A program made the position numbers and the translations under genes. From a virus: a DNA stretch of 8,355 nucleotides. Below are positions 1-6,643 of this stretch, piece after piece. Under the pieces are notes generated by a model. The model searched no databases, was not told the DNA's origin, and worked only from the letters and a program-made list of their open reading frames with translations. Location: UHGV virus genome UHGV-0366079, one strand, 5' to 3'. Numbering within the stretch: position 1 is the stretch's first letter; every line of letters begins with the position of its first letter.

Positions 1-40
1 GTCTGCCAAACAAAAGGATTAAGTACCACGAATGGTACAA

Positions 41-78
41 ACGTGCAGTATTACCTACACTGCACGTTCTTTATTGTG
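41..78 (+). terminator. Candidate intrinsic terminator for an upstream plus-strand gene outside the window
   Basis: 9-bp stem acgtgcagt (41-49) / actgcacgt (59-67) with 9-nt loop, followed by T-rich tctttattgtg (68-78). Read by eye, no folding energy computed. Confidence 0.35.
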
Positions 79-110
79 CGGATTTTGAACAGCAACAAAG
101 GATCAAAAGG

Positions 111-539
111 ATGAGTAGAAATAACGAAACAAGCGGCGTTGAACTGGTTGTTGTAGGCGTATTTGCTTTCTGTCTGGCAGTTGTTGCCTGGCTAATGAAA
201 ACTTTCGATGTTGAATGGCAAACAGCACTGGAAACTGCGCCTGGCCTGATAGTCTGGCTGCTTGTTGTCGGTGCGGGGATCTTTTTCGGGATCAAAATGG
301 AAACTGGCCTTATTCGCTGGGGTGCTCCACTGGCGATCGCCCTTCTGATTCCGGTATTCAAGCCAATTCTTAAGGAAGCTGCCGGAGTTCGTGAAACGGG
401 TGGGCTGGTTTTCGATGATATGGTTTCGTGGTATGGAACTGGCTGGGGAATGTCTCTGATGTTCTTCGGGATTCTTATTGTCGGATATGGCCTGCTTTAT
501 GGTGGCACAGAAGAAATTCATATTACTGGTAATCAATAA
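111..539 (+). CDS. Hypothetical small integral membrane protein, 142 aa, about 4 predicted TM helices
   Basis: ATG at 111 with AAAGGA 8 nt upstream. Four hydrophobic stretches (about aa 12-29, 44-61, 70-84, 112-132). First gene of a tight 3-gene cluster. No family recognised. Confidence 0.6.
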   Translation: MSRNNETSGVELVVVGVFAFCLAVVAWLMKTFDVEWQTALETAPGLIVWLLVVGAGIFFGIKMETGLIRWGAPLAIALLIPVFKPILKEAAGVRETGGLVFDDMVSWYGTGWGMSLMFFGILIVGYGLLYGGTEEIHITGNQ

Positions 540-560
540 AACGTAGAAGAGAGGAAACAT

Positions 561-836
561 ATGAAACTGAATCCTGAGAAATACAATAGAAACATTACCC
601 TGCTATGTCCTGTGTGCGGAAATACAGAGATGGAACACGAGGAAGAGTCTGAAGTCGTTAGATGTGTAGGCTGCGGGAAAGAATTTACTAATGATGAGTT
701 AATCCAAGAAAACGGGGTGAGTATTGACGCTCATGTAGATGAAATAAAAGAAGAGTTAACAAAAGACATTCAAAAACAGTTTAACGACATGCTCAAAAAG
801 GCATTTAAGGGAAGTAAGAATATAAGGATCAAATAA
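561..836 (+). CDS. Hypothetical zinc-ribbon protein, 91 aa
   Basis: Strong SD GAGAGGAAA 6 nt before ATG 561. CPVC (aa 16-19) and CVGC (aa 35-38) form a C4 zinc-ribbon signature; charged helical C-terminus. Starts 21 nt after the upstream stop. Confidence 0.6.
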   Translation: MKLNPEKYNRNITLLCPVCGNTEMEHEEESEVVRCVGCGKEFTNDELIQENGVSIDAHVDEIKEELTKDIQKQFNDMLKKAFKGSKNIRIK

Positions 837-1315
837 TGACAACAAGTGATGCCATCGCTTTAGCTGCGCTTGTAGTATCGATTTACACTATCATATCGTC
901 AGAAATGAAATCGAGAAAAAGCGATAGAGAACAAAAGGTTATAAAGGATGAGCAAGACAGGTTACGTAAGTTGCTTCTGGAAAAAGAAACAAAGTCAGCA
1001 ATTAATGAGATGAAAGCTGAGCTTGGTGCTCGCCTCGTAAAAATAGCCAAAAACAACTATAGGCTCAAGATATTTAATAGAGGGAGAGTTGAGGCTAAAA
1101 ATATAGAGATTCATTTCCCTGATAACGATGGAAATGAATATCTTTCAATGCATGATGTAGAAGATAAATTTCCATATGAGGTATTACACCCGCAACATGG
1201 AATTGAAATTTTAGCGGGAATAAGCTTTGGAAGTAAAACTAAATACCGAATAAAACTCATATGGGATGACAATTATAAAAGAAGAAATGAAGAGGAGTTT
1301 TTCATTTCTATATAA
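836..1315 (+). CDS. Hypothetical membrane-anchored protein, 159 aa: N-terminal TM helix, charged coiled-coil-like segment, C-terminal domain
   Basis: ATG 836-838 overlaps the upstream stop TAA 834-836 (TAATG, translational coupling); AAGGA about 10 nt upstream. Hydrophobic aa 5-22, then a K/E/R-rich helix. Visibly AT-rich. No family recognised. Confidence 0.6.
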   Translation: MTTSDAIALAALVVSIYTIISSEMKSRKSDREQKVIKDEQDRLRKLLLEKETKSAINEMKAELGARLVKIAKNNYRLKIFNRGRVEAKNIEIHFPDNDGNEYLSMHDVEDKFPYEVLHPQHGIEILAGISFGSKTKYRIKLIWDDNYKRRNEEEFFISI

Positions 1316-1344
1316 ATTGGTTCGCACAATGACGTTATGCTAAA

Positions 1345-1383
1345 GAGGCCGCTGCGGGATTCGATTTTCGCAGCGGCCTTTTC
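1345..1383. terminator. Rho-independent terminator ending the plus-strand 3-gene operon, possibly bidirectional
   Basis: 11-bp GC-rich stem aggccgctgcg (1346-1356) / cgcagcggcct (1369-1379), 12-nt loop, then TTTT (1379-1382). Sits 30 nt after the stop at 1315. A-rich on the 5' side, so it may also act on the minus strand. Confidence 0.55.
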
Positions 1384-1412
1384 AACATAACGAGTCGTAC
1401 ATTATGCGCACC
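1381..1412 (-). other. dif-like XerC/XerD recombination site with an 11-bp central region (candidate phage att site)
   Basis: Minus strand reads GGTGCGCATAA TGTACGACTCG TTATGTTGAAA. E. coli dif as I recall it is GGTGCGCATAA TGTATA TTATGTTAAAT. XerC arm 11/11, first 4 central nt identical, XerD-like arm 9/11 if a 5-nt longer spacer is allowed. The XerD-like arm abuts the terminator stem. Confidence 0.5.
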
Positions 1413-1450
1413 AATAGTAAGGATGGCGGGAACTGGCGTTACCGGTGCCG

Positions 1451-1684
1451 TCATTGGTCACAGACCGTAATCCACTGGCCCAGGACGTCTTTCAGGCAAT
1501 GTTGGCATAAATCCAGTTTTAAGCGATTACTGTCACCAAAAATTGAACCGTATCCAGCTAAGTGATTAACAGACAGAAACTCATTGAACTCAATGTCATC
1601 TACCACCGTCTTCGCATGGCGACCACAGCGATCGCAGGTCTTCGCACATAACATTACAGTATCGCTGGATGTGAAAAATTGCAT
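1451..1684 (-). CDS. Hypothetical small Cys-rich (putative zinc-binding) protein, 77 aa; phage cargo candidate
   Basis: ATG at 1684..1682 with strong SD GAGGAGA 5 nt upstream. Cys at 13, 17, 20 and CQHC at 61-64 suggest a zinc ribbon. Same strand as the phage genes, downstream of gIV. Confidence 0.6.
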   Translation of the reverse strand: MQFFTSSDTVMLCAKTCDRCGRHAKTVVDDIEFNEFLSVNHLAGYGSIFGDSNRLKLDLCQHCLKDVLGQWITVCDQ

Positions 1685-1755
1685 TTTATCTCCTCGTAAT
1701 GCTGCCGCGCCGAATCAGCAATAACGCTAAAAAAACAGAATTGTTCGGCTTGGCC

Positions 1756-1800
1756 AACCCCTGACACTAACAAAAGCAAGTTTTGTTAGTGTCAGGGGTT
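1756..1800. repeat. Perfect 20-bp inverted repeat with 5-nt loop (hairpin/cruciform); candidate packaging signal, origin hairpin or operator
   Basis: aacccctgacactaacaaaa (1756-1775), loop gcaag, ttttgttagtgtcaggggtt (1781-1800): exact reverse complements. Begins 2 nt after the stop of the 102-aa ORF. The minus-strand T-run lies about 20 nt beyond the stem, so it is not a classical terminator. Confidence 0.8.
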
Positions 1801-1801
1801 A

Positions 1802-2110
1802 TCATATAAACCAATAGACCGTCCTTACGCCATTCTGGTTATCAATAACATAGCCGCATTGTTTCCTTAAAAATTCTTCTGCTAAATCAATGGCTTTTAC
1901 AGAAATCTCATAAGAAGGAAGTAAAGTGTATCCTTTCCCTTCACTGGCAGCTGCTTTGATCGCATCCAGAGTATTATCAATCAGTAACAGAGCAAGTGAT
2001 GCTTCATTTACCTGAGCCGAAGAACTTCTGGCTGCAAGTGTCATTGTTTTTGCTTCTTCCGCTGTAATCGTTCGTTCTGCCAGAGCAGATAAAATCCCAT
2101 AAGAATCCAT
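1802..2110 (-). CDS. Hypothetical protein, 102 aa; phage cargo candidate directly downstream of gIV
   Basis: ATG at 2110..2108 with GGGGT about 6 nt upstream. Helical N-terminal half, beta-like C-terminus. No family recognised. Co-oriented with the phage genes. Confidence 0.55.
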   Translation of the reverse strand: MDSYGILSALAERTITAEEAKTMTLAARSSSAQVNEASLALLLIDNTLDAIKAAASEGKGYTLLPSYEISVKAIDLAEEFLRKQCGYVIDNQNGVRTVYWFI

Positions 2111-2130
2111 TAGTTACCCCAATCAATAAT

Positions 2131-2190
2131 GTCCATTTGATGGATAGCGAGCAGGGCTCACGCACCTACCCGCTATCCATCAAAGTGGAC
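2131..2190 (-). terminator. Large imperfect hairpin at the gIV 3' end; candidate gIV terminator and/or packaging-signal hairpin
   Basis: Arms gtccatttgatggatagcg (2131-2149) and cgctatccatcaaagtggac (2171-2190) pair over 19 bp with one bulged nucleotide; 21-nt loop. Overlaps the gIV stop (2180-2182). In Ff phages the packaging-signal hairpin immediately follows gIV (established knowledge). Confidence 0.4.
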
Positions 2191-3445
2191 GAATGATATG
2201 TGCTGTAAGCAAAATATACATAATACGCTGTTCATTGCTGTCTGCCTTGCTACTGAAAATCCAGCCTATAAGAGGAATTTTACTTATAACTGGAACTGAA
2301 CGCTCGGCATTGCTGAACGATGAATCGATAAGCCCCCCCAATAACAACGTCTGACCATCCTTAATCTGGACTGTCGTCTGAATCTGGCGCTGATTAGTAA
2401 TAATATCGGATGCCTGATCATCATTGCTGATTGAATCAGCGCGAGTGTCGATAGTCAGAACTAGTTGCCCGTTACCCATGACAACAGGCGTTACCTTGAG
2501 AGAAACGCCAACATCATGACGCTCGATAGTCTGAAACGGATTATTTACCCCGGCAGATTCGCCCGTTACCTTTCCGGTGATAAACGGCACATTCTTACCT
2601 ACGGAAATGTAACCAGTCTGACCAGACTGAGTAAGAATACGCGGCGTTGAAATCACCTTAGAGCGTGAATTACTCTGGACAGCACGCAGAGACAGCGCCA
2701 ACACGTTACCATCAAAAATACCAAAAGAACCGCCCGCCGTAGAAAGAGCGCTACCCAGTGCAGAAGTATTAAAGCCCCCCGCAACCTTATGACCGGATGC
2801 AGAACCTGCCGCAAACGATAAATCAACGCCATCAGACAAGCTGGTTTCAAACATCAGCGACTGAATGAGAACCTGATCGCGGGCAACATCCACAGAATTG
2901 ATAAAATCGGACAGAACCGGCAGCAGCTCGTCAGGCGCAGAAACAATCAGCGAGTTATTGCCTGGATAATCCACGACATTACCACCACCATTAGAATCAA
3001 GATAAATTTTAATCAGTTGCTGAACATCGGACGATCTAACTTTTGTCAGCTTAAAATTTCTGACCGTAAGCGCCACAGGTACTGGCTGGTAAGATGGCTC
3101 AGAAGGAAAAGTATCATAAGACTGGTTATCAGAATCATCGGAATCCGAAACCATCTGTGAAGGTAATTTAGACGGCAAAGAGACTACCGCAGGATTGCCA
3201 GAAAGCATGACAAAACCGTTAGCATTCAGAACAGACTTAAAGAAATCATCAATATTTGTTGGATTAACATCAGCATTAAATACGGTTACGTTTCCTTTAA
3301 TATCAGGATTAACAATAACAGGCTTGCCAGTTTTTGAAGAATACCACTGAACAAATGAGCGAACAGATGAATTATTTAAATTAACAGTTTCAGCAGAAAC
3401 GCAGAATGAATAGGCAAATAAAAAAGCAACAATAACAGAGCGCAT
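2180..3445 (-). CDS. IV: Filamentous-phage pIV outer-membrane secretin (virion export channel)
   Basis: Start corrected to ATG 3445 (MRSVIVAFLFAYSFCVSA signal peptide) with AGGAG about 11 nt upstream; the track ORF start 3538 overlaps gI. Collinear with M13 pIV as recalled (NNS..R.FV.WYS, VPFITG.VTGESA.VNNPFQTIER, LLLGGL, SKIPLIG). 421 aa. Confidence 0.9.
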   Translation of the reverse strand: MRSVIVAFLFAYSFCVSAETVNLNNSSVRSFVQWYSSKTGKPVIVNPDIKGNVTVFNADVNPTNIDDFFKSVLNANGFVMLSGNPAVVSLPSKLPSQMVSDSDDSDNQSYDTFPSEPSYQPVPVALTVRNFKLTKVRSSDVQQLIKIYLDSNGGGNVVDYPGNNSLIVSAPDELLPVLSDFINSVDVARDQVLIQSLMFETSLSDGVDLSFAAGSASGHKVAGGFNTSALGSALSTAGGSFGIFDGNVLALSLRAVQSNSRSKVISTPRILTQSGQTGYISVGKNVPFITGKVTGESAGVNNPFQTIERHDVGVSLKVTPVVMGNGQLVLTIDTRADSISNDDQASDIITNQRQIQTTVQIKDGQTLLLGGLIDSSFSNAERSVPVISKIPLIGWIFSSKADSNEQRIMYILLTAHIIRPL

Positions 3446-3452
3446 AATAATA

Positions 3453-3827
3453 TTACTCCTGACAGGTAACAGTCTGTAAATAACGGCCTTTTCTAATAAC
3501 AACACGACAGGCATCTTTAATATCAACGGAATAACCATCTTTAATCAAATCAAAATACTGATATTTCATACCTTTTGCATCAACAAACGTAACGGAAACG
3601 TCAAAGCCAAGTTGTGAAAAAGAATTAATAGAAAGTCGGGGTAAGTCACTGGACGAATCAGGCGTTACCGCCCTCGCCTGTTCAGCATAAGCAGATTTAA
3701 TAGCTGAGATTTCATCAACATTCTTTCCAGACTGGAGCCAGAAACCAAACGCAAGCCCCAGCGCCAAAAAAGAAAGCATTAATATAAGACGGTTCGATTT
3801 GCGAAAATAAATTTTAGTGAGGCGCAT
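3453..3827 (-). CDS. XI: pXI, in-frame internal restart product of gene I (C-terminal 124 aa with the TM segment)
   Basis: Internal ATG at Met241 of pI (MRLTKIYFRK), the same position as pXI in Ff as recalled, with AGAGGA upstream. Expression not provable from sequence. Confidence 0.5.
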   Translation of the reverse strand: MRLTKIYFRKSNRLILMLSFLALGLAFGFWLQSGKNVDEISAIKSAYAEQARAVTPDSSSDLPRLSINSFSQLGFDVSVTFVDAKGMKYQYFDLIKDGYSVDIKDACRVVIRKGRYLQTVTCQE

Positions 3828-4547
3828 ATAATAATTAAATCCTCTGTGAACAGAAAATTGACCGTGCGTGATAAATGGTGGCAAAAGCGAAAATGCGCCA
3901 TGAGGATAATTATCTGTGAACGCTTGTTTGGTATTGTAAGCAGAATAAAGAGATTTTCCTGTATATATCCATTTATCAACAGTGATTGAATTAACATTAT
4001 CACCATATTTGACAATGCCAAAGTGTACCTTTGGTAAAGAAAATCTCGCCCCTGAAACCAAATTCATAATGGAGCCAACAAAAGGAATGTTTAATTTATC
4101 TGAACGGCGACAATAAACAACATGCTCAGCAAGCGCCAGACGAGCTTGCTTATCCATTATCGAAATATCCTGAATCAAAAATATAATATCCCAGCCTAAT
4201 TTTCTGGCATGTAAAAACCAGTCAATAACAGGTTGTCTGTCTTTATCACCCCATGAGCGGGAATTAAACCAAGTACCACATTCATCAAGTACAAGGAGGC
4301 CATTACGGGATTCATCGTAAGATGTATTCCCAATACCAATAGCAAGTAAATCATTTAATGAAGGCTTGTCAGGAATGCGAATAACGCGCGTTTTTTTCGC
4401 ATAACGCCCAACCATAGGCATATTATGCAATTTAAGATCAAGATTAGTGGCAACAGGACAACCCTTAGCAAGTCTTTCCTGTATTCTGGAAACACTAACA
4501 AGTGTCTTGCCTGAGCCTAATTTGCCTGTTACTACATAAACCGCCAT
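3453..4547 (-). CDS. I: Filamentous-phage pI assembly ATPase (Zot-like, Walker A)
   Basis: N-terminus MAVYVVTGKLGSGKTLVSV carries Walker A GxxGSGKT; long blocks match M13 pI as recalled (LLVLDECGTWFN.RSW, RQP.IDWFLHARKLGWDIIFL.QD, ALAEHVVYCRR). One TM segment near aa 254-271. Start abuts the gVI stop (TAAATG). 364 aa. Confidence 0.92.
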   Translation of the reverse strand: MAVYVVTGKLGSGKTLVSVSRIQERLAKGCPVATNLDLKLHNMPMVGRYAKKTRVIRIPDKPSLNDLLAIGIGNTSYDESRNGLLVLDECGTWFNSRSWGDKDRQPVIDWFLHARKLGWDIIFLIQDISIMDKQARLALAEHVVYCRRSDKLNIPFVGSIMNLVSGARFSLPKVHFGIVKYGDNVNSITVDKWIYTGKSLYSAYNTKQAFTDNYPHGAFSLLPPFITHGQFSVHRGFNYYMRLTKIYFRKSNRLILMLSFLALGLAFGFWLQSGKNVDEISAIKSAYAEQARAVTPDSSSDLPRLSINSFSQLGFDVSVTFVDAKGMKYQYFDLIKDGYSVDIKDACRVVIRKGRYLQTVTCQE

Positions 4548-4889
4548 TTAAATCACCCTGTTTGCATAATCAAGAAACTTTTGTTTTAAATCGAAAACAA
4601 AAACACTGATACGAGTAACCATAATAACGTTAACACACGCCTGAAAATGGTCAGGCAATACAGACGCCATTAAATGGGAGAAATCAGCAGGTAAACCGTT
4701 ATACATGACCTCAGCAAGGTACTGCATTAAAAGCGTAACAGTTGTTGTAATTAATGCGACCAATGCAAAGGCGATTAATCCTGTTCTGGTAGCAAGTCGA
4801 GCTAAAAAACTCGCCACATAGCCAATAAACAAAGGAACAAGACCAATAAGAAAACGCAACAATGCAGGAATACCTAATAATAAAGGCAT
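4548..4889 (-). CDS. VI: Filamentous-phage pVI minor coat protein
   Basis: [14 protein letters not shown]... hydrophobic, about 113 aa, similar to M13 pVI as recalled (LLGIP.LLRF, FD.KQK). ATG 4889..4887 overlaps the gIII stop TGA 4891..4889 (TGATG); AAGGGGGTGA RBS upstream. The track start at 4892 is a GTG one codon upstream. Confidence 0.85.
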   Translation of the reverse strand: MPLLLGIPALLRFLIGLVPLFIGYVASFLARLATRTGLIAFALVALITTTVTLLMQYLAEVMYNGLPADFSHLMASVLPDHFQACVNVIMVTRISVFVFDLKQKFLDYANRVI

Positions 4890-6151
4890 CACTCACCCCC
4901 TTTGCGAAGCAATGAAGTTAAAGAAGTAAAGACATACCAGAACGTAAGGCAATAAAAAACCCATGAAAGAACATCTTTAATAGTCAGTAATTTATCGCAA
5001 CCAATATCAATCTGATAAACCTCACCGGGAAAAATAATAAAATCAGAGCAGCCGTTACCATTGGGTAAATTAGGCAGCATAGCACCTTTATTTAAAAACG
5101 CTTCCCATAAAGCACCGTGAGAATCCTTTTCAATTCCCAATTCAGAATCAGCCAAAGTAGAAGCGCCATCTAATTCAGAGTCGCCCTTTCCATAACGAGA
5201 ATCACCACCTGAAGGGTCAGCAAAACGGCCAGCCCCCCGCGTAAGATTGTTAATGGAATCGTCAAGACGATTTATATTATTCCTGGTTTGTTCATCGGCA
5301 TTTTTTTTATCATCTGATGAAGTGTCTTTCTCCGTTAATTTATCATGAATATCGCTGGCTATTTTGGGTGAAGCACCTTCGATCGCAGACTGAATATCAC
5401 CTTTAGAAAGACTGGAACCACTAGAGCCACCGCCAGAACTACCGCCAGAACTACCGCCACCGGACTCACCACCGCCAGACTCACCACCACCGGACTCACC
5501 ACCGCTGGACTCACCACCGCCAGACTCACCACCACCATTTTGGGGGGTTGAGGGTTTATCAGAGGGGTCAGCTACAGCACCTGTAGGCTTCCATGTTGCA
5601 GCGCAAACAGTACCATCACCCTGACAAACAATGACACCAGTAGCCTCATATTCACAGCCGTTATAGTAGATATAGCGACCACCATCATATGAATCAACAT
5701 TATTAAATACACCTTCTTCTGGCGGCTTCGCTTCACAAATTTCTTCTGGTGTCGGGTCAGTAGGTTTTTCATCAGGAACAGAACGCTGAATATTACCAAC
5801 AATATAAGCCGTTAAAGACCAATATTTATCCTTCTGCCCTGGTGAATCGCTGTAAGTACAATCGCCAGTAAAAACAAGACGGAATTCAGAATCAGGCCAG
5901 ATACCCTCATAAGTTGGTTTAATCCGAGTAAATACACTCTGAGCACTGGATTTAGCACCCTGACAAGCGGAGGCCTGCATAGCAGCATCAATATAGTAAA
6001 CCGTTATCTTAGAGCCATCCTGATTGGTTATTTGCTTACTTTCAGCGTAGGCAGAACTTTGATAAGTGGATTTAGTAATGCTTTCCCATGACTCAGCATG
6101 TGAAAAAGGAGAAATGAGGACAGCGGAAAGAATTAATATTTTCCTTCTCAT
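4889..6151 (-). CDS. III: Filamentous-phage pIII adsorption protein: divergent N-terminal domain, N1 (TolA-binding)-like domain, Gly-rich linker, C-terminal membrane anchor
   Basis: Start set at ATG 6151 ([19 protein letters not shown] signal peptide); the track extension to 6295 overlaps gVIII and the terminator. [26 protein letters not shown] resembles M13 N1 (YEGCLWNATGVVVCTGDETQCYGTW); GGGES repeats; C-terminus CDKL...FWYVFTSL resembles M13 CDKI...FMYVFSTF. 420 aa. Confidence 0.85.
5424..5536 (-). repeat. Tandem 15-nt repeats encoding the Gly/Ser/Glu linker (GGGES units) of pIII
   Basis: Plus strand shows iterated ggactcaccaccgcc / agactcaccaccacc units, translating on the minus strand to [39 protein letters not shown]. 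Confidence 0.8.
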
Positions 6152-6160
6152 AGTAACCCG

Positions 6161-6188
6161 CTTTAATAAAGGGGCAACGAGTGCCCCT
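6161..6188 (-). terminator. Intrinsic terminator between gVIII and gIII
   Basis: Minus strand AGGGGCA-CTCGT-TGCCCCT (7-bp GC-rich stem, 5-nt loop) followed by TTTATT, 10 nt after the gVIII stop. Ff phages carry a terminator at this position (established knowledge). Confidence 0.6.
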
Positions 6189-6197
6189 GAGTGAAAT

Positions 6198-6440
6198 TCA
6201 AACCGCTTTTGAAGAGAATTTTTTGAAAATACGAATGGCAAGCCCAGCGCCAACCACAGCAACAACAACAGGCCATACTTTACCAATGAGATCATTTGCC
6301 TGAGTCAACAAAGCATCCATTGCCTGACCTGCATAATCAGTACCACCTGTAGCGCCTTCAGCCGCAAAAGAACTTGCAGAAATAAAAAGCGCAGTTGAAG
6401 CCAGAGCAATTTTATATTTAACAGTAGACAGAATTTTCAT
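6198..6440 (-). CDS. VIII: Filamentous-phage pVIII major coat protein
   Basis: 80-aa precursor: signal peptide ending SSFA with cleavage before AEG, hydrophobic core [15 protein letters not shown], basic C-terminus [11 protein letters not shown] (compare M13 KLFKKFTSKAS). GGAG 9 nt upstream of ATG 6440. Confidence 0.9.
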
Positions 6441-6459
6441 AGGAATAACTCCATTAAGG

Positions 6460-6555
6460 TTACATTAATCGGTCAGAAAATGATTTAAATGAACCGACCG
6501 CATAGAAAAGGGCAAAACCAAAGGTATAAGCCCCGAAGAAATAAACGATATACAT
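6460..6555 (-). CDS. IX: pIX-like minor coat protein, 31 aa
   Basis: MYIVYFFGAYTFGFALFYAVGSFKSFSDRLM: tiny hydrophobic peptide just upstream of gVIII, resembling M13 pIX (32 aa) in size and the RLM motif. ATG 6555..6553 overlaps the gVII stop (TAATG). Confidence 0.6.
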   Translation of the reverse strand: MYIVYFFGAYTFGFALFYAVGSFKSFSDRLM

Positions 6556-6641
6556 TAACGAAAGACCCCCGCAGTAATCGCGCCGAGGCCAAAAGAAATA
6601 ACGATGCCAGACGCTATCAAAATTTGAATAACATCGTCCAT
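6555..6641 (-). CDS. VII: pVII-like minor coat protein, 28 aa (absent from the ORF track; found by hand translation)
   Basis: ATG 6641..6639 lies 2 nt after the gV-position stop; encodes MDDVIQILIASGIVISFGLGAITAGVFR, a single hydrophobic helix; stop TAA 6557..6555 overlaps the gIX start. Position and size match Ff gVII (33 aa). Confidence 0.55.
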   Translation of the reverse strand: MDDVIQILIASGIVISFGLGAITAGVFR

Positions 6642-6643
6642 AT

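What the first reader, a model, noticed from the sequence alone, without database searches (positions are those of the whole stretch)
1381..1412. dif-like XerC/XerD site with an extended 11-bp central region next to the phage module
The minus strand carries a perfect 11/11 XerC-binding arm of E. coli dif (GGTGCGCATAA), the first 4 nt of the dif central region, then a 7-nt deviation and a 9/11 XerD-like arm (TTATGTTGAAA). A 15-nt contiguous identity to dif is unlikely by chance in 8 kb. Classical Ff phages are not known to integrate. A Xer site beside an Ff-like gene set suggests an IMEX-type filamentous phage using host XerCD (as CTXphi, CUS-1 and Ypf-type phages do). This would be either attP of a replicative form or an att junction of a prophage. 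The 11-bp central region (dif has 6) would favour one-strand, XerC-only, poorly reversible exchange.
Basis: partly seen in the sequence, partly recalled or inferred. Interest (0 to 1): 0.72.

Follow-up and report, generated by a model that had tools for sequence, protein, structure and literature searches.

The report
Known Xer attachment site of UPΦ phage
The dif-like sequence is real, but it is half of an already described attachment site: a 94-base hairpin-forming module, identical to that of the plague-bacillus phage YpfΦ, which a known group of E. coli filamentous phages (UPΦ) probably uses to insert at the chromosome's dif site with the host enzymes XerC and XerD.

Summary
Observation confirmed. 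The minus strand at 1380-1412 reads GGTGCGCATAA|TGTACGACTCG|TTATGTTGAAA: an 11/11 XerC arm, TGTA, an 11-nt centre and a 9/11 XerD arm. The stated start is one base short.

The window is one complete unit, circularly permuted, of an IKe/I2-2-like inovirus with YpfΦ-like gII/gV. This is a "UPΦ virus" (Shapiro & Putonti 2020). In E. coli chromosomes the same phage sits exactly at dif, with an intact dif regenerated at one end and the 11-nt-centre site at the other. The window's site has phage DNA on both sides, so it is attP of a free circle or a junction between tandem prophages.

On the strand inferred to be packaged, the 94 nt fold into a forked hairpin (z about -8). This is the CTXΦ-type attP(+) layout.

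The module is identical in Y. pestis YpfΦ. Reviews already class YpfΦ and CUS-1Φ as CTX-type elements that integrate as single-stranded DNA.

The IMEX interpretation is supported and the biology is already known. The single-strand, XerC-only mechanism is inferred, not shown, for this family.

The parts
1380..1412 (-). XerC arm 1402-1412 (GGTGCGCATAA, 11/11 to dif). Central region 1391-1401 (TGTACGACTCG; the first 4 nt equal dif). XerD arm 1380-1390 (TTATGTTGAAA, 9/11).
   Evidence: The same sequence forms the hipA-side prophage junction in L001.
1346..1379 (.). Perfect 11-bp GC-rich stem (1346-1356 / 1369-1379) with a 12-nt loop (1357-1368). It is the spacer between the two inverted dif-like sites and forms the tip of the forked hairpin.
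   Evidence: The consensus scan did not call it an intrinsic terminator.
1319..1345 (+). Site A (attP2-like), an inverted second dif-like site. XerC-like arm 1319-1329 (GGTTCGCACAA, 9/11). 5-nt central region 1330-1334 (TGACG). XerD-like arm 1335-1345 (TTATGCTAAAG, 9/11). On the viral strand it supplies the complementary strand of the folded site.
   Evidence: The conserved module ends exactly at this XerC arm, and cargo diverges immediately beyond it.
1316..1415 (-). Whole attP(+) module: the 94-nt core 1319-1412 plus three extra flanking pairs. On the viral strand it folds as a forked hairpin with a one-sided bulge of about 6-7 nt in the central region of site B.
   Evidence: dG -31.2 kcal/mol, z -8.46. 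(six variants, z -7.5 to -9.3). (94.8% of cells paired against at most 52.6% when slid).
6973..8067 (-). gII replication initiator (G2P N- and C-terminal domains). 86% amino-acid identity to the Ypf-type Rep and 56% to I2-2.
6644..6961 (-). gV single-strand DNA-binding protein. 94% amino-acid identity to the Ypf type.
6198..6440 (-). gVIII major coat protein.
4889..6295 (-). gIII attachment protein (maximal ORF). It has a G3P pilus-binding domain and is about 51-53% identical to I2-2 and IKe g3p.
4548..4892 (-). DUF5455 protein, in the gVI position.
3453..4547 (-). gI (Zot-family assembly ATPase).
2180..3538 (-). gIV secretin (maximal ORF; annotated as 1266 nt in relatives).
1451..2110 (-). 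Two small ORFs of unknown function (102 aa at 1802-2110, 77 aa at 1451-1684) between gIV and attP.
   Evidence: The UPΦ paper describes two novel genes at this position (PMC7307601).
111..1315 (+). Variable cargo slot next to attP, transcribed opposite to the core. It holds ORFs of 142 aa, 91 aa (zinc ribbon, 'ECs_2282 family') and 159 aa.
   Evidence: Different cargo follows the same module in other loci.

Best explanation
**What it is.** Window 1319-1412 is the attachment site (attP) of a UPΦ-group temperate inovirus. This phage has IKe/I2-2-like structural genes and a YpfΦ-like replication module, and it encodes no integrase.

**Anatomy.** The site has two dif-like XerC/XerD sites in inverted orientation, with 11-nt and 5-nt central regions, separated by an 11-bp GC stem-loop.

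**Proposed mechanism** (CTXΦ paradigm; inferred here, not shown):
1. In the packaged or rolling-circle (+) strand, which is the window's minus strand, the 94 nt fold into a forked hairpin.
2. The hairpin's stem recreates one XerC-binding and one XerD-binding duplex. These flank a 5-nt paired bottom strand and a 6-7-nt bulge in the top strand.
3. Host XerC cleaves the top strand after GGTGCGCATAA. The freed TGTA pairs with the identical first bases of the host dif centre (TGTATA), and one pair of strands is exchanged.
4. Replication converts this intermediate into a prophage.

**Outcome.** The prophage carries a regenerated, functional dif at one end. At the other end is a hybrid site, identical in sequence to site B, that is expected to be inactive as duplex DNA. 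Integration should therefore be essentially irreversible. Repeated integration into the regenerated dif builds tandem arrays. The window's site is either attP of the free circle or the identical junction between tandem copies.
For: **Shown directly**
- Both dif-like sites are present and are the only two in the window. Inverted repeats of 24 nt and 16 nt, each 88% complementary, bracket an asymmetric bubble.
- The viral-sense strand folds with dG -31.2 kcal/mol and z -8.5. Six sequence variants adopt the same fold, z -7.5 to -9.3.
- All core genes are on the strand that reads site B in top-strand sense. The same holds in 40 of 40 related loci where core genes could be detected.
- In E. coli TUM13936 the phage lies between a perfect dif and the site-B sequence, next to hipA. 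The crossover therefore lies within GGTGCGCATAATGTA.
- The empty site is contiguous in 3339 of 5426 genomes.
- Phage-phage junctions identical to the window occur in seven E. coli chromosomes, including a long array in EC5502.
- A circular 7.9-kb record of a relative exists.

**Conservation**
- Among 17 distinct module variants, changes cluster in the bulge and the loop. The module ends exactly at the XerC arm of site A.
- 94.8% of cells are paired, against at most 52.6% in slid controls. Two pairs have changes on both sides.
- A separate lineage, L008 (Rep_trans-type Rep, Gp8 coat), has the same layout with an unrelated, longer spacer and 9/6-nt centres.

**Literature**
- CTXΦ attP1 and attP2 have 12-bp and 5-7-bp centres, are inverted, are inactive as duplex, and work as folded ssDNA with XerC-only exchange (PMC4246890).
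- YpfΦ and CUS-1Φ are listed as CTX-type (PMC4246890, PMC3089051).
- The Y. pestis module is identical to the window's.
Against: - No experiment for UPΦ, YpfΦ or CUS-1Φ shows that single-stranded DNA is the substrate. The reviews say 'may' and 'proposed'.
- The observed junctions are equally predicted by a duplex attP with XerC-side exchange.
- Covariation is thin. The family is closely related (93% mean column identity). The search pattern fixed the first 15 nt of site B (XerC arm and TGTA) plus TTATG, the first 5 nt of its XerD arm, so their invariance carries no information.
- The 40 loci used for orientation are related, not independent.
- The identity of the packaged strand is inferred from gene polarity, as in Ff phages. 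No Ff-type nick motif was found.
- YpfΦ has been reported to insert between resident copies, at the 'imperfect dif' junction. The simple CTX model does not predict this (PMC4266046).
Confidence: 0.78

Rival explanations
1. Duplex attP of the VGJΦ type. The double-stranded replicative form recombines with dif through site B alone, using XerC-first exchange resolved by replication. Site A and the stem-loop would be irrelevant to integration, for example serving as a transcription stop between convergent genes.
For: Junction sequences fit this model as well as the single-strand model. XerC-side identity (TGTA) is also the rule for VGJΦ-type sites (PMC4246890). The replicative form exists as a circle.
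Against: An 11-bp centre is far from the 6-7 bp of active duplex Xer sites. CTXΦ's 12-bp attP1 is reported inactive as duplex (PMC4246890). Site A is conserved, remains complementary to site B and marks the exact module boundary. L008, an independent lineage, keeps the inverted pair with a different spacer. VGJ-type phages carry a single site of about 29 bp (PMC4246890).
Confidence: 0.14
2. The site is a host-phage junction (attL or attR) of a single prophage, not attP. The window would then contain host chromosome on one side.
For: The sequence at 1380-1412 is identical to the hipA-side junction site in L001, because the phage and host XerC arms are the same.
Against: Beyond the XerC arm the window continues with phage DNA (AATAGTAAGGATGG..., orf77), not with the host hipA flank (AACATAAACCAAGG...). 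The window's two ends abut each other inside the prophage. No host gene is present.
Confidence: 0.02
3. Chance resemblance to dif next to an ordinary bidirectional terminator. There would be no Xer function.
For: A GC-rich stem-loop lies between convergent genes. Four T's follow it on the plus strand.
Against: Two two-arm dif-like sites lie within 94 nt, whereas only 2 of 300 simulated windows had even one. The terminator scan found none. Prophages carrying this module sit precisely at dif.
Confidence: 0.01

Closest known systems
YpfΦ (Yersinia pestis) and CUS-1Φ (E. coli O18:K1:H7) attP
   Same: The 94-nt module (both sites plus stem-loop) is base-for-base identical to the Y. pestis NCTC5923 tandem junction. 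gII is 86% and gV 94% identical in amino acids, and the first cargo-side ORF is 98% identical. Both integrate at dif, regenerate dif and form tandem arrays (PMC4266046).
   Different: The structural and assembly genes (gVIII, gIII, gVI, gI, gIV) are unrelated or only 27% identical. By backbone the window is therefore not YpfΦ or CUS-1Φ. The cargo genes also differ.
UPΦ viruses (UPΦ901; Shapiro & Putonti 2020, PMC7307601)
   Same: The window is 98.2% identical, over its full length and in one piece, to the prophage in ECONIH2 (CP014667). The paper names that prophage as a UPΦ tandem triple with three extra ORFs. My comparisons gave the same mosaic the paper describes: IKe/I2-2-like structural genes with Ypf-like gII/gV. 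[quoted passage not shown]
   Different: A term search of the paper's main text found no occurrence of attP, hairpin or inverted. It treats the site simply as 'a copy of the dif site'. The link to the Ypf/CTX-type folded attP is added here.
CTXΦ attP(+) of Vibrio cholerae
   Same: Both have two inverted dif-like sites with over-long and short centres: 12 and 5-7 in CTXΦ, 11 and 5 here. In both, identity to dif is restricted to the bases next to the XerC arm (TGT in CTXΦ, TGTA here). Both lie between the end of the core genes and the cargo/regulator region, regenerate dif and form tandem arrays (PMC4246890, PMC3089051).
   Different: The spacer is 34 nt, a clean stem-loop, rather than about 90 bp. 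The arms match E. coli/Yersinia dif rather than dif1. The Rep is G2P-type rather than RstA-type. No experimental proof of single-strand integration exists for this family.
VGJΦ-type IMEX attP
   Same: A filamentous phage that uses XerC-first exchange at dif.
   Different: VGJΦ has a single 29-bp duplex site and integrates reversibly (PMC4246890). Here there is an 11-nt centre and a paired inverted site.
IKe / I2-2 (Lineavirus)
   Same: Gene order is the same and the structural proteins are about 50-56% identical. The g3p pilus-binding domain is shared.
   Different: IKe and I2-2 do not integrate and lack any dif-like site and the cargo slot (PMC7307601).

Membership tests
CTXΦ-type IMEX (folded single-strand attP) | Filamentous phage with no integrase of its own | tested here: met
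   Pfam found only inovirus core families and no recombinase in any ORF.
CTXΦ-type IMEX (folded single-strand attP) | Two dif-like XerC/XerD sites in inverted orientation, each with a non-canonical central region | tested here: met
   Site at 1380-1412 (-) with an 11-nt centre and site at 1319-1345 (+) with a 5-nt centre.
CTXΦ-type IMEX (folded single-strand attP) | The (+) strand folds so that the two sites pair into one XerC-XerD substrate | tested here: met
   Met in silico only: dG -31.2 kcal/mol, z -8.5. Variants fold the same way. 94.8% of cells are paired. The identity of the packaged strand is inferred from gene polarity.
CTXΦ-type IMEX (folded single-strand attP) | Bases next to the XerC arm are identical in attP and host dif | tested here: met
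   TGTA is shared with dif TGTATA.
CTXΦ-type IMEX (folded single-strand attP) | Prophage at dif, with intact dif regenerated on one side and a hybrid site on the other | tested here: met
   Junctions in L001 and the empty-site test.
CTXΦ-type IMEX (folded single-strand attP) | ssDNA is the recombination substrate; XerC catalysis only; resolved by replication; irreversible | not testable with these tools
   Needs in vitro XerCD assays or genetics. Only tandem arrays, which are consistent with the model, were seen.
UPΦ viruses | IKe/I2-2-like core genes in conserved order, with gII/gV more than 85% identical to YpfΦ | tested here: met
   matching the description in PMC7307601.
UPΦ viruses | Near-identity to a named member | tested here: met
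   ECONIH2 CP014667 covers 100% of the window at 98.2% identity in one piece (H7).
YpfΦ / CUS-1Φ | About 99% nucleotide identity over the 7.1-kb core | tested here: not met
   Only gII, gV, one cargo-side ORF and attP are shared. The structural genes have no match or only 27% identity.
VGJΦ-type IMEX | Single duplex dif-like site of about 29 bp with a 6-7-bp centre | tested here: not met
   The centre is 11 nt and a paired inverted site is present.
Chromosomal dif | 28-bp site with a 6-bp centre at the replication terminus | tested here: not met
   The site is 33 bp with an 11-nt centre and has phage DNA on both flanks.

The most novel reading that the evidence does not exclude
The 94-nt attP module may behave as a portable lysogeny cassette. 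It is identical in two inovirus backbones whose structural genes are unrelated or nearly so (UPΦ and YpfΦ). It also ends a ~2.8-kb non-phage element that carries an AbiJ-like gene. That element is bounded on its other side by a plasmid Xer site in pECOS88. Sequence related to the module region (window 1250-1560) occurs at about 480 plasmid places (ColV/IncF and Klebsiella plasmids), and the same element abuts a UPΦ copy in one viral contig. If this reading is right, enterobacterial plasmids and dif arrays host a family of Xer-dependent mini-elements or satellites that share the phage's single-strand attP and move defence cargo. I did not find this described.
Probability: 0.3. Interest if true: 0.45.

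Novelty: already known. Interest (0 to 1): 0.2.

Why it matters
**For the finding as given.** It matters little, because the phage group, its dif integration and the CTX-like architecture of the identical YpfΦ attP are all published.

**What is modestly useful.**
- UPΦ was described as carrying 'a copy of dif'. This analysis ties it to the Ypf/CUS-1/CTX-type folded attP.
- The module is very compact (94 nt) and is matched to E. coli dif. That makes it a convenient substrate for testing single-strand Xer integration with the well-characterised E. coli XerCD proteins.
- The slot next to site A collects varied cargo, including a Doc-family toxin and AbiJ-like genes, in phages found in urinary and invasive E. 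coli.

Tried and rejected
- **Ff-type gpII nick motif.** I searched for GTTCTTTAATAGTGG to fix the polarity of the packaged strand. Only a chance-level 3-mismatch hit inside a cargo gene turned up, so polarity rests on gene orientation.
- **Terminator scan.** It found no terminator at the stem-loop. The tool only accepts loops of 3-8 nt and this loop is 12 nt, so this argues only weakly against a terminator role.
- **Species-representative genome scan.** The site-B pattern gave four hits: Y. pestis, one E. coli contaminant contig in a 'Nanosynbacter' MAG, and two unrelated chance matches. It added little diversity.
- **Covariation.** Only 2 of 33 pairs change on both sides. The family is too closely related, and part of site B was fixed by the search pattern. 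This is supportive but not decisive.
- **Phage collection.** There is no close relative; only IKe, I2-2 and PEar appear, at about 80% nucleotide identity over about 190 nt. YpfΦ, CUS-1 and UPΦ appear not to be in that collection.
- **Cargo ORFs.** PADLOC and Pfam gave no function beyond a zinc ribbon.
- **CUS-1 paper.** Gonzalez et al. 2002 (PMC135385) is not held.
- **'The window is CUS-1'.** I first assumed this. I rejected it after the structural genes proved unrelated to the Ypf-type backbone.

Full report
**1. The observation**

The minus strand at 1380-1412 reads GGTGCGCATAA TGTACGACTCG TTATGTTGAAA. Against E. coli dif (GGTGCGCATAA TGTATA TTATGTTAAAT; found intact in a related locus):
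- the XerC arm is 11/11;
- the first four central bases are identical;
- seven bases deviate;
- the XerD arm is 9/11.

The 15-nt identity is unique in the window, with 0.01 matches expected by chance even when two mismatches are allowed.

**2. What the window is**

- **Gene content.** All inovirus core genes lie on the minus strand: G2P replication protein, G5P, Gp8, G3P with a pilus-binding domain, DUF5455 (in the gVI position), Zot-type gI and a secretin. Three unassigned ORFs lie on the plus strand just left of the site. No integrase is present.
- **Prophage at dif.** Megablast finds the whole window at 98-99.6% identity in E. coli chromosomes. One place covers at least 80% of the window in 47 of 5426 genomes. 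In strain TUM13936 the element sits between the yde fimbrial cluster and hipA.
- **Circular permutation.** Relative to that prophage the window is circularly permuted. Window position 1 follows directly after window position 8355 inside the prophage.
- **Junctions in TUM13936.** The left junction is a perfect 28-bp dif whose XerC arm continues into phage DNA. The right junction is the phage's XerD-like arm, 11-nt centre and XerC arm, continuing into the hipA flank.
- **Empty-site test.** A reconstructed prophage-free site is contiguous in 3339 of 5426 E. coli genomes. This is a genuine insertion at dif, with the crossover inside GGTGCGCATAATGTA.
- **Nature of the window's site.** It has phage DNA on both sides. 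It is therefore attP of a circular form or the identical junction between tandem prophages. Seven E. coli chromosomes contain that junction. One, EC5502, has a very long array. A Salmonella assembly holds a relative as a 7,938-bp circular record.

**3.

- **Second site.** Scanning with both dif arms finds exactly one more site, at 1319-1345 on the plus strand: GGTTCGCACAA TGACG TTATGCTAAAG. It is 9/11 and 9/11 to the dif arms, has a 5-nt centre, and is inverted relative to the first site.
- **Stem-loop.** Between the two sites lies a perfect 11-bp GC stem with a 12-nt loop.
- **Fold.** On the viral-sense strand the 94 nt fold into one long forked hairpin (dG -31.2 kcal/mol, z -8.5). The two XerC arms pair, with one mismatch and one wobble, and so do the two XerD arms. 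The 5-nt centre is paired, and 6-7 nt of the 11-nt centre bulge out.
- **Geometry (my inference).** The arms are thereby spaced about as in a normal Xer site on one strand.
- **Terminator.** The consensus scan does not call the stem-loop a terminator.

**4. Conservation**

- **Sampling.** Pattern scans of viral, genome and metagenome collections returned 17 distinct variants of the module.
- **Where variation falls.** It is concentrated in the bulged part of the centre and in the loop.
- **Module boundary.** Sequence beyond the XerC arm of site A diverges at once into different cargo. The conserved unit runs exactly from XerC arm to XerC arm.
- **Pair counts.** For the proposed pairing, 94.8% of cells are standard pairs, against at most 52.6% when partners are slid. 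Two pairs change on both sides.
- **Caveats.** The variants are closely related. The search pattern fixed the first 15 nt of site B (XerC arm and TGTA) and TTATG, the first 5 nt of its XerD arm. This is supportive rather than decisive.
- **Independent lineage.** L008 has a Rep_trans-type replication protein and a Gp8 coat. It shows the same layout with an unrelated, longer spacer and 9/6-nt centres.
- **Orientation.** In all 40 loci where core genes could be detected, site B reads in top-strand sense on the coding strand of the core genes. Single-strand integration of the (+) strand requires this orientation. It also agrees with the observed junctions.

**5. Identity**

- **attP.** The module is identical to the junction between tandem YpfΦ copies in Y. 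pestis NCTC5923.
- **Backbone.** The backbone is not YpfΦ or CUS-1. Only gII (86% aa), gV (94% aa), one cargo-side ORF (98%) and attP are shared. The structural genes are unrelated to the Ypf type and about 50-56% identical to I2-2 and IKe.
- **Published group.** This mosaic is the published 'UPΦ' group (PMC7307601). The paper names ECONIH2 (CP014667) as a UPΦ tandem triple with three additional ORFs. That record matches the window over its full length at 98.2%.

**6. Comparison with the literature**

- **CTXΦ.** Its attP has two inverted dif-like sites with 12-bp and 5-7-bp centres. Both are inactive as duplex. The folded (+) strand is the substrate, XerC exchanges one strand pair, replication completes integration, and the prophage cannot excise by Xer (PMC4246890).
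[quoted passage not shown] It also states that integration regenerates dif and gives tandem arrays (PMC4266046).
- **Classification.** YpfΦ and CUS-1Φ are listed as CTX-type members (PMC4246890). Their attP sites are said to show features for direct ssDNA integration (PMC3089051). Endo III is proposed as a co-factor for them (PMC3442271).
- **UPΦ paper.** It notes the 15-base dif repeat, but a term search of its main text found no occurrence of attP, hairpin or inverted.

**7. Verdict**

The site is half of a CTXΦ-type attP whose sequence is identical to that of YpfΦ, carried by a described phage group. The finding is therefore already known.

The single-strand, XerC-only mechanism is the best-supported explanation (about 0.78). 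It remains inferred for this family. A duplex, VGJ-type use of site B alone is the main rival (about 0.14), and only experiments can exclude it.

**8. Side observations**

- **Plasmid matches.** The stretch 1318-1389 matches hundreds of plasmids. In pECOS88 and pINF078-VP these are not bare sites. They are the right end of an inserted element whose left end abuts a plasmid Xer site with a perfect XerD arm.
- **The pECOS88 element.** It is about 2.8 kb. It encodes an HTH/rve-like protein and an AbiJ_NTD4+DUF7014 protein. The sequence next to its XerC arm also abuts a UPΦ copy in one viral contig.
- **Status.** This suggests non-phage Xer-dependent elements that share the module. I did not follow it to a conclusion.

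Noticed in passing
window 1-8355 (ends), compared with L001 14928/14929: The window is exactly one phage unit. Its last base is followed directly by its first base inside the integrated prophage, with no terminal overlap. It looks like a closed circular genome opened at an arbitrary point, or one unit cut from a tandem array. A small 60-aa ORF (WP_001335098-like) is split across the window ends.
   Followed up: partly
L004 (pECOS88, NC_011747.1) 271-3080; L003 (pINF078-VP) 1199-4099; L007 880-1000: Roughly 480 plasmid places (ColV/IncF, Klebsiella, Salmonella) match the module region (window 1250-1560). In pECOS88 the match is the right end of a ~2.8-kb element. Its left end abuts a plasmid Xer site (TGTGCGCACAA TCTATC TTATGTTAAAT). 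The element encodes an HTH/rve-like protein and an AbiJ_NTD4+DUF7014 (STM4504-family) protein. The same element abuts a UPΦ copy in an IMG/VR contig. It may be a non-phage IMEX or satellite that shares the phage attP and carries a defence-like gene.
   Followed up: partly
window 111-1315 and the equivalent position in L002, L005-L049: The sequence immediately beyond the XerC arm of site A is a variable cargo slot. Different loci carry a Doc-family toxin (Salmonella circular record), STM4504/AbiJ-like, PD-(D/E)XK nuclease or DUF6953 genes, or unrelated small ORFs. The window's own three ORFs have no assignable function; the 91-aa one is a zinc ribbon with weak PADLOC PDC-S64 similarity.
   Followed up: partly
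L050 (E. coli EC5502 chromosome NZ_CP092647.1, 4.94-5.0 Mb and across the record start): Seventeen places match the attP region, and the 50 kb I inspected is an unbroken tandem array of UPΦ copies. Many copies have frameshifts, which are probably long-read errors. This is far more than the 2-4 copies reported for YpfΦ. It could be real amplification or replicative-form reads collapsed into the chromosome.
   Followed up: partly
L002 (Salmonella enterica NZ_CP140410.1, 7,938-bp circular 'plasmid'): A complete UPΦ relative is deposited as a circular non-mobilizable plasmid. It carries the same attP (two substitutions) and a Doc-family toxin as cargo. It is most simply the free replicative form.
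   Followed up: partly
L005 (K. pneumoniae plasmid p1, NZ_CP132684.1): Tandem copies of a Ypf-type inovirus, 99.6% identical to the Y. pestis regulator/rep region, sit on an IncFIB/IncHI1B plasmid rather than at the chromosomal dif.
   Followed up: no
L008 1-135 (IMGVR_UViG_3300034682_000200): A different inovirus lineage (Rep_trans-type Rep, Gp8 coat) has its own version of the two-site attP. The XerC arms are perfectly complementary, the centres are 9 and 6 nt, and the spacer is longer and unrelated.
   Followed up: partly
L015 4419-4530: One viral contig has site B and the 5' half of the stem, but the 3' half of the stem and site A are replaced by other sequence. It is a natural variant lacking site A, presumably a decayed or rearranged prophage end.
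   Followed up: no
L022 (JARKOR010000214.1, 'Candidatus Nanosynbacter' MAG): This contig carries the E. coli hipA-side junction with a UPΦ prophage that has the same cargo as the window. It is almost certainly E. coli contamination of the MAG bin.
   Followed up: no
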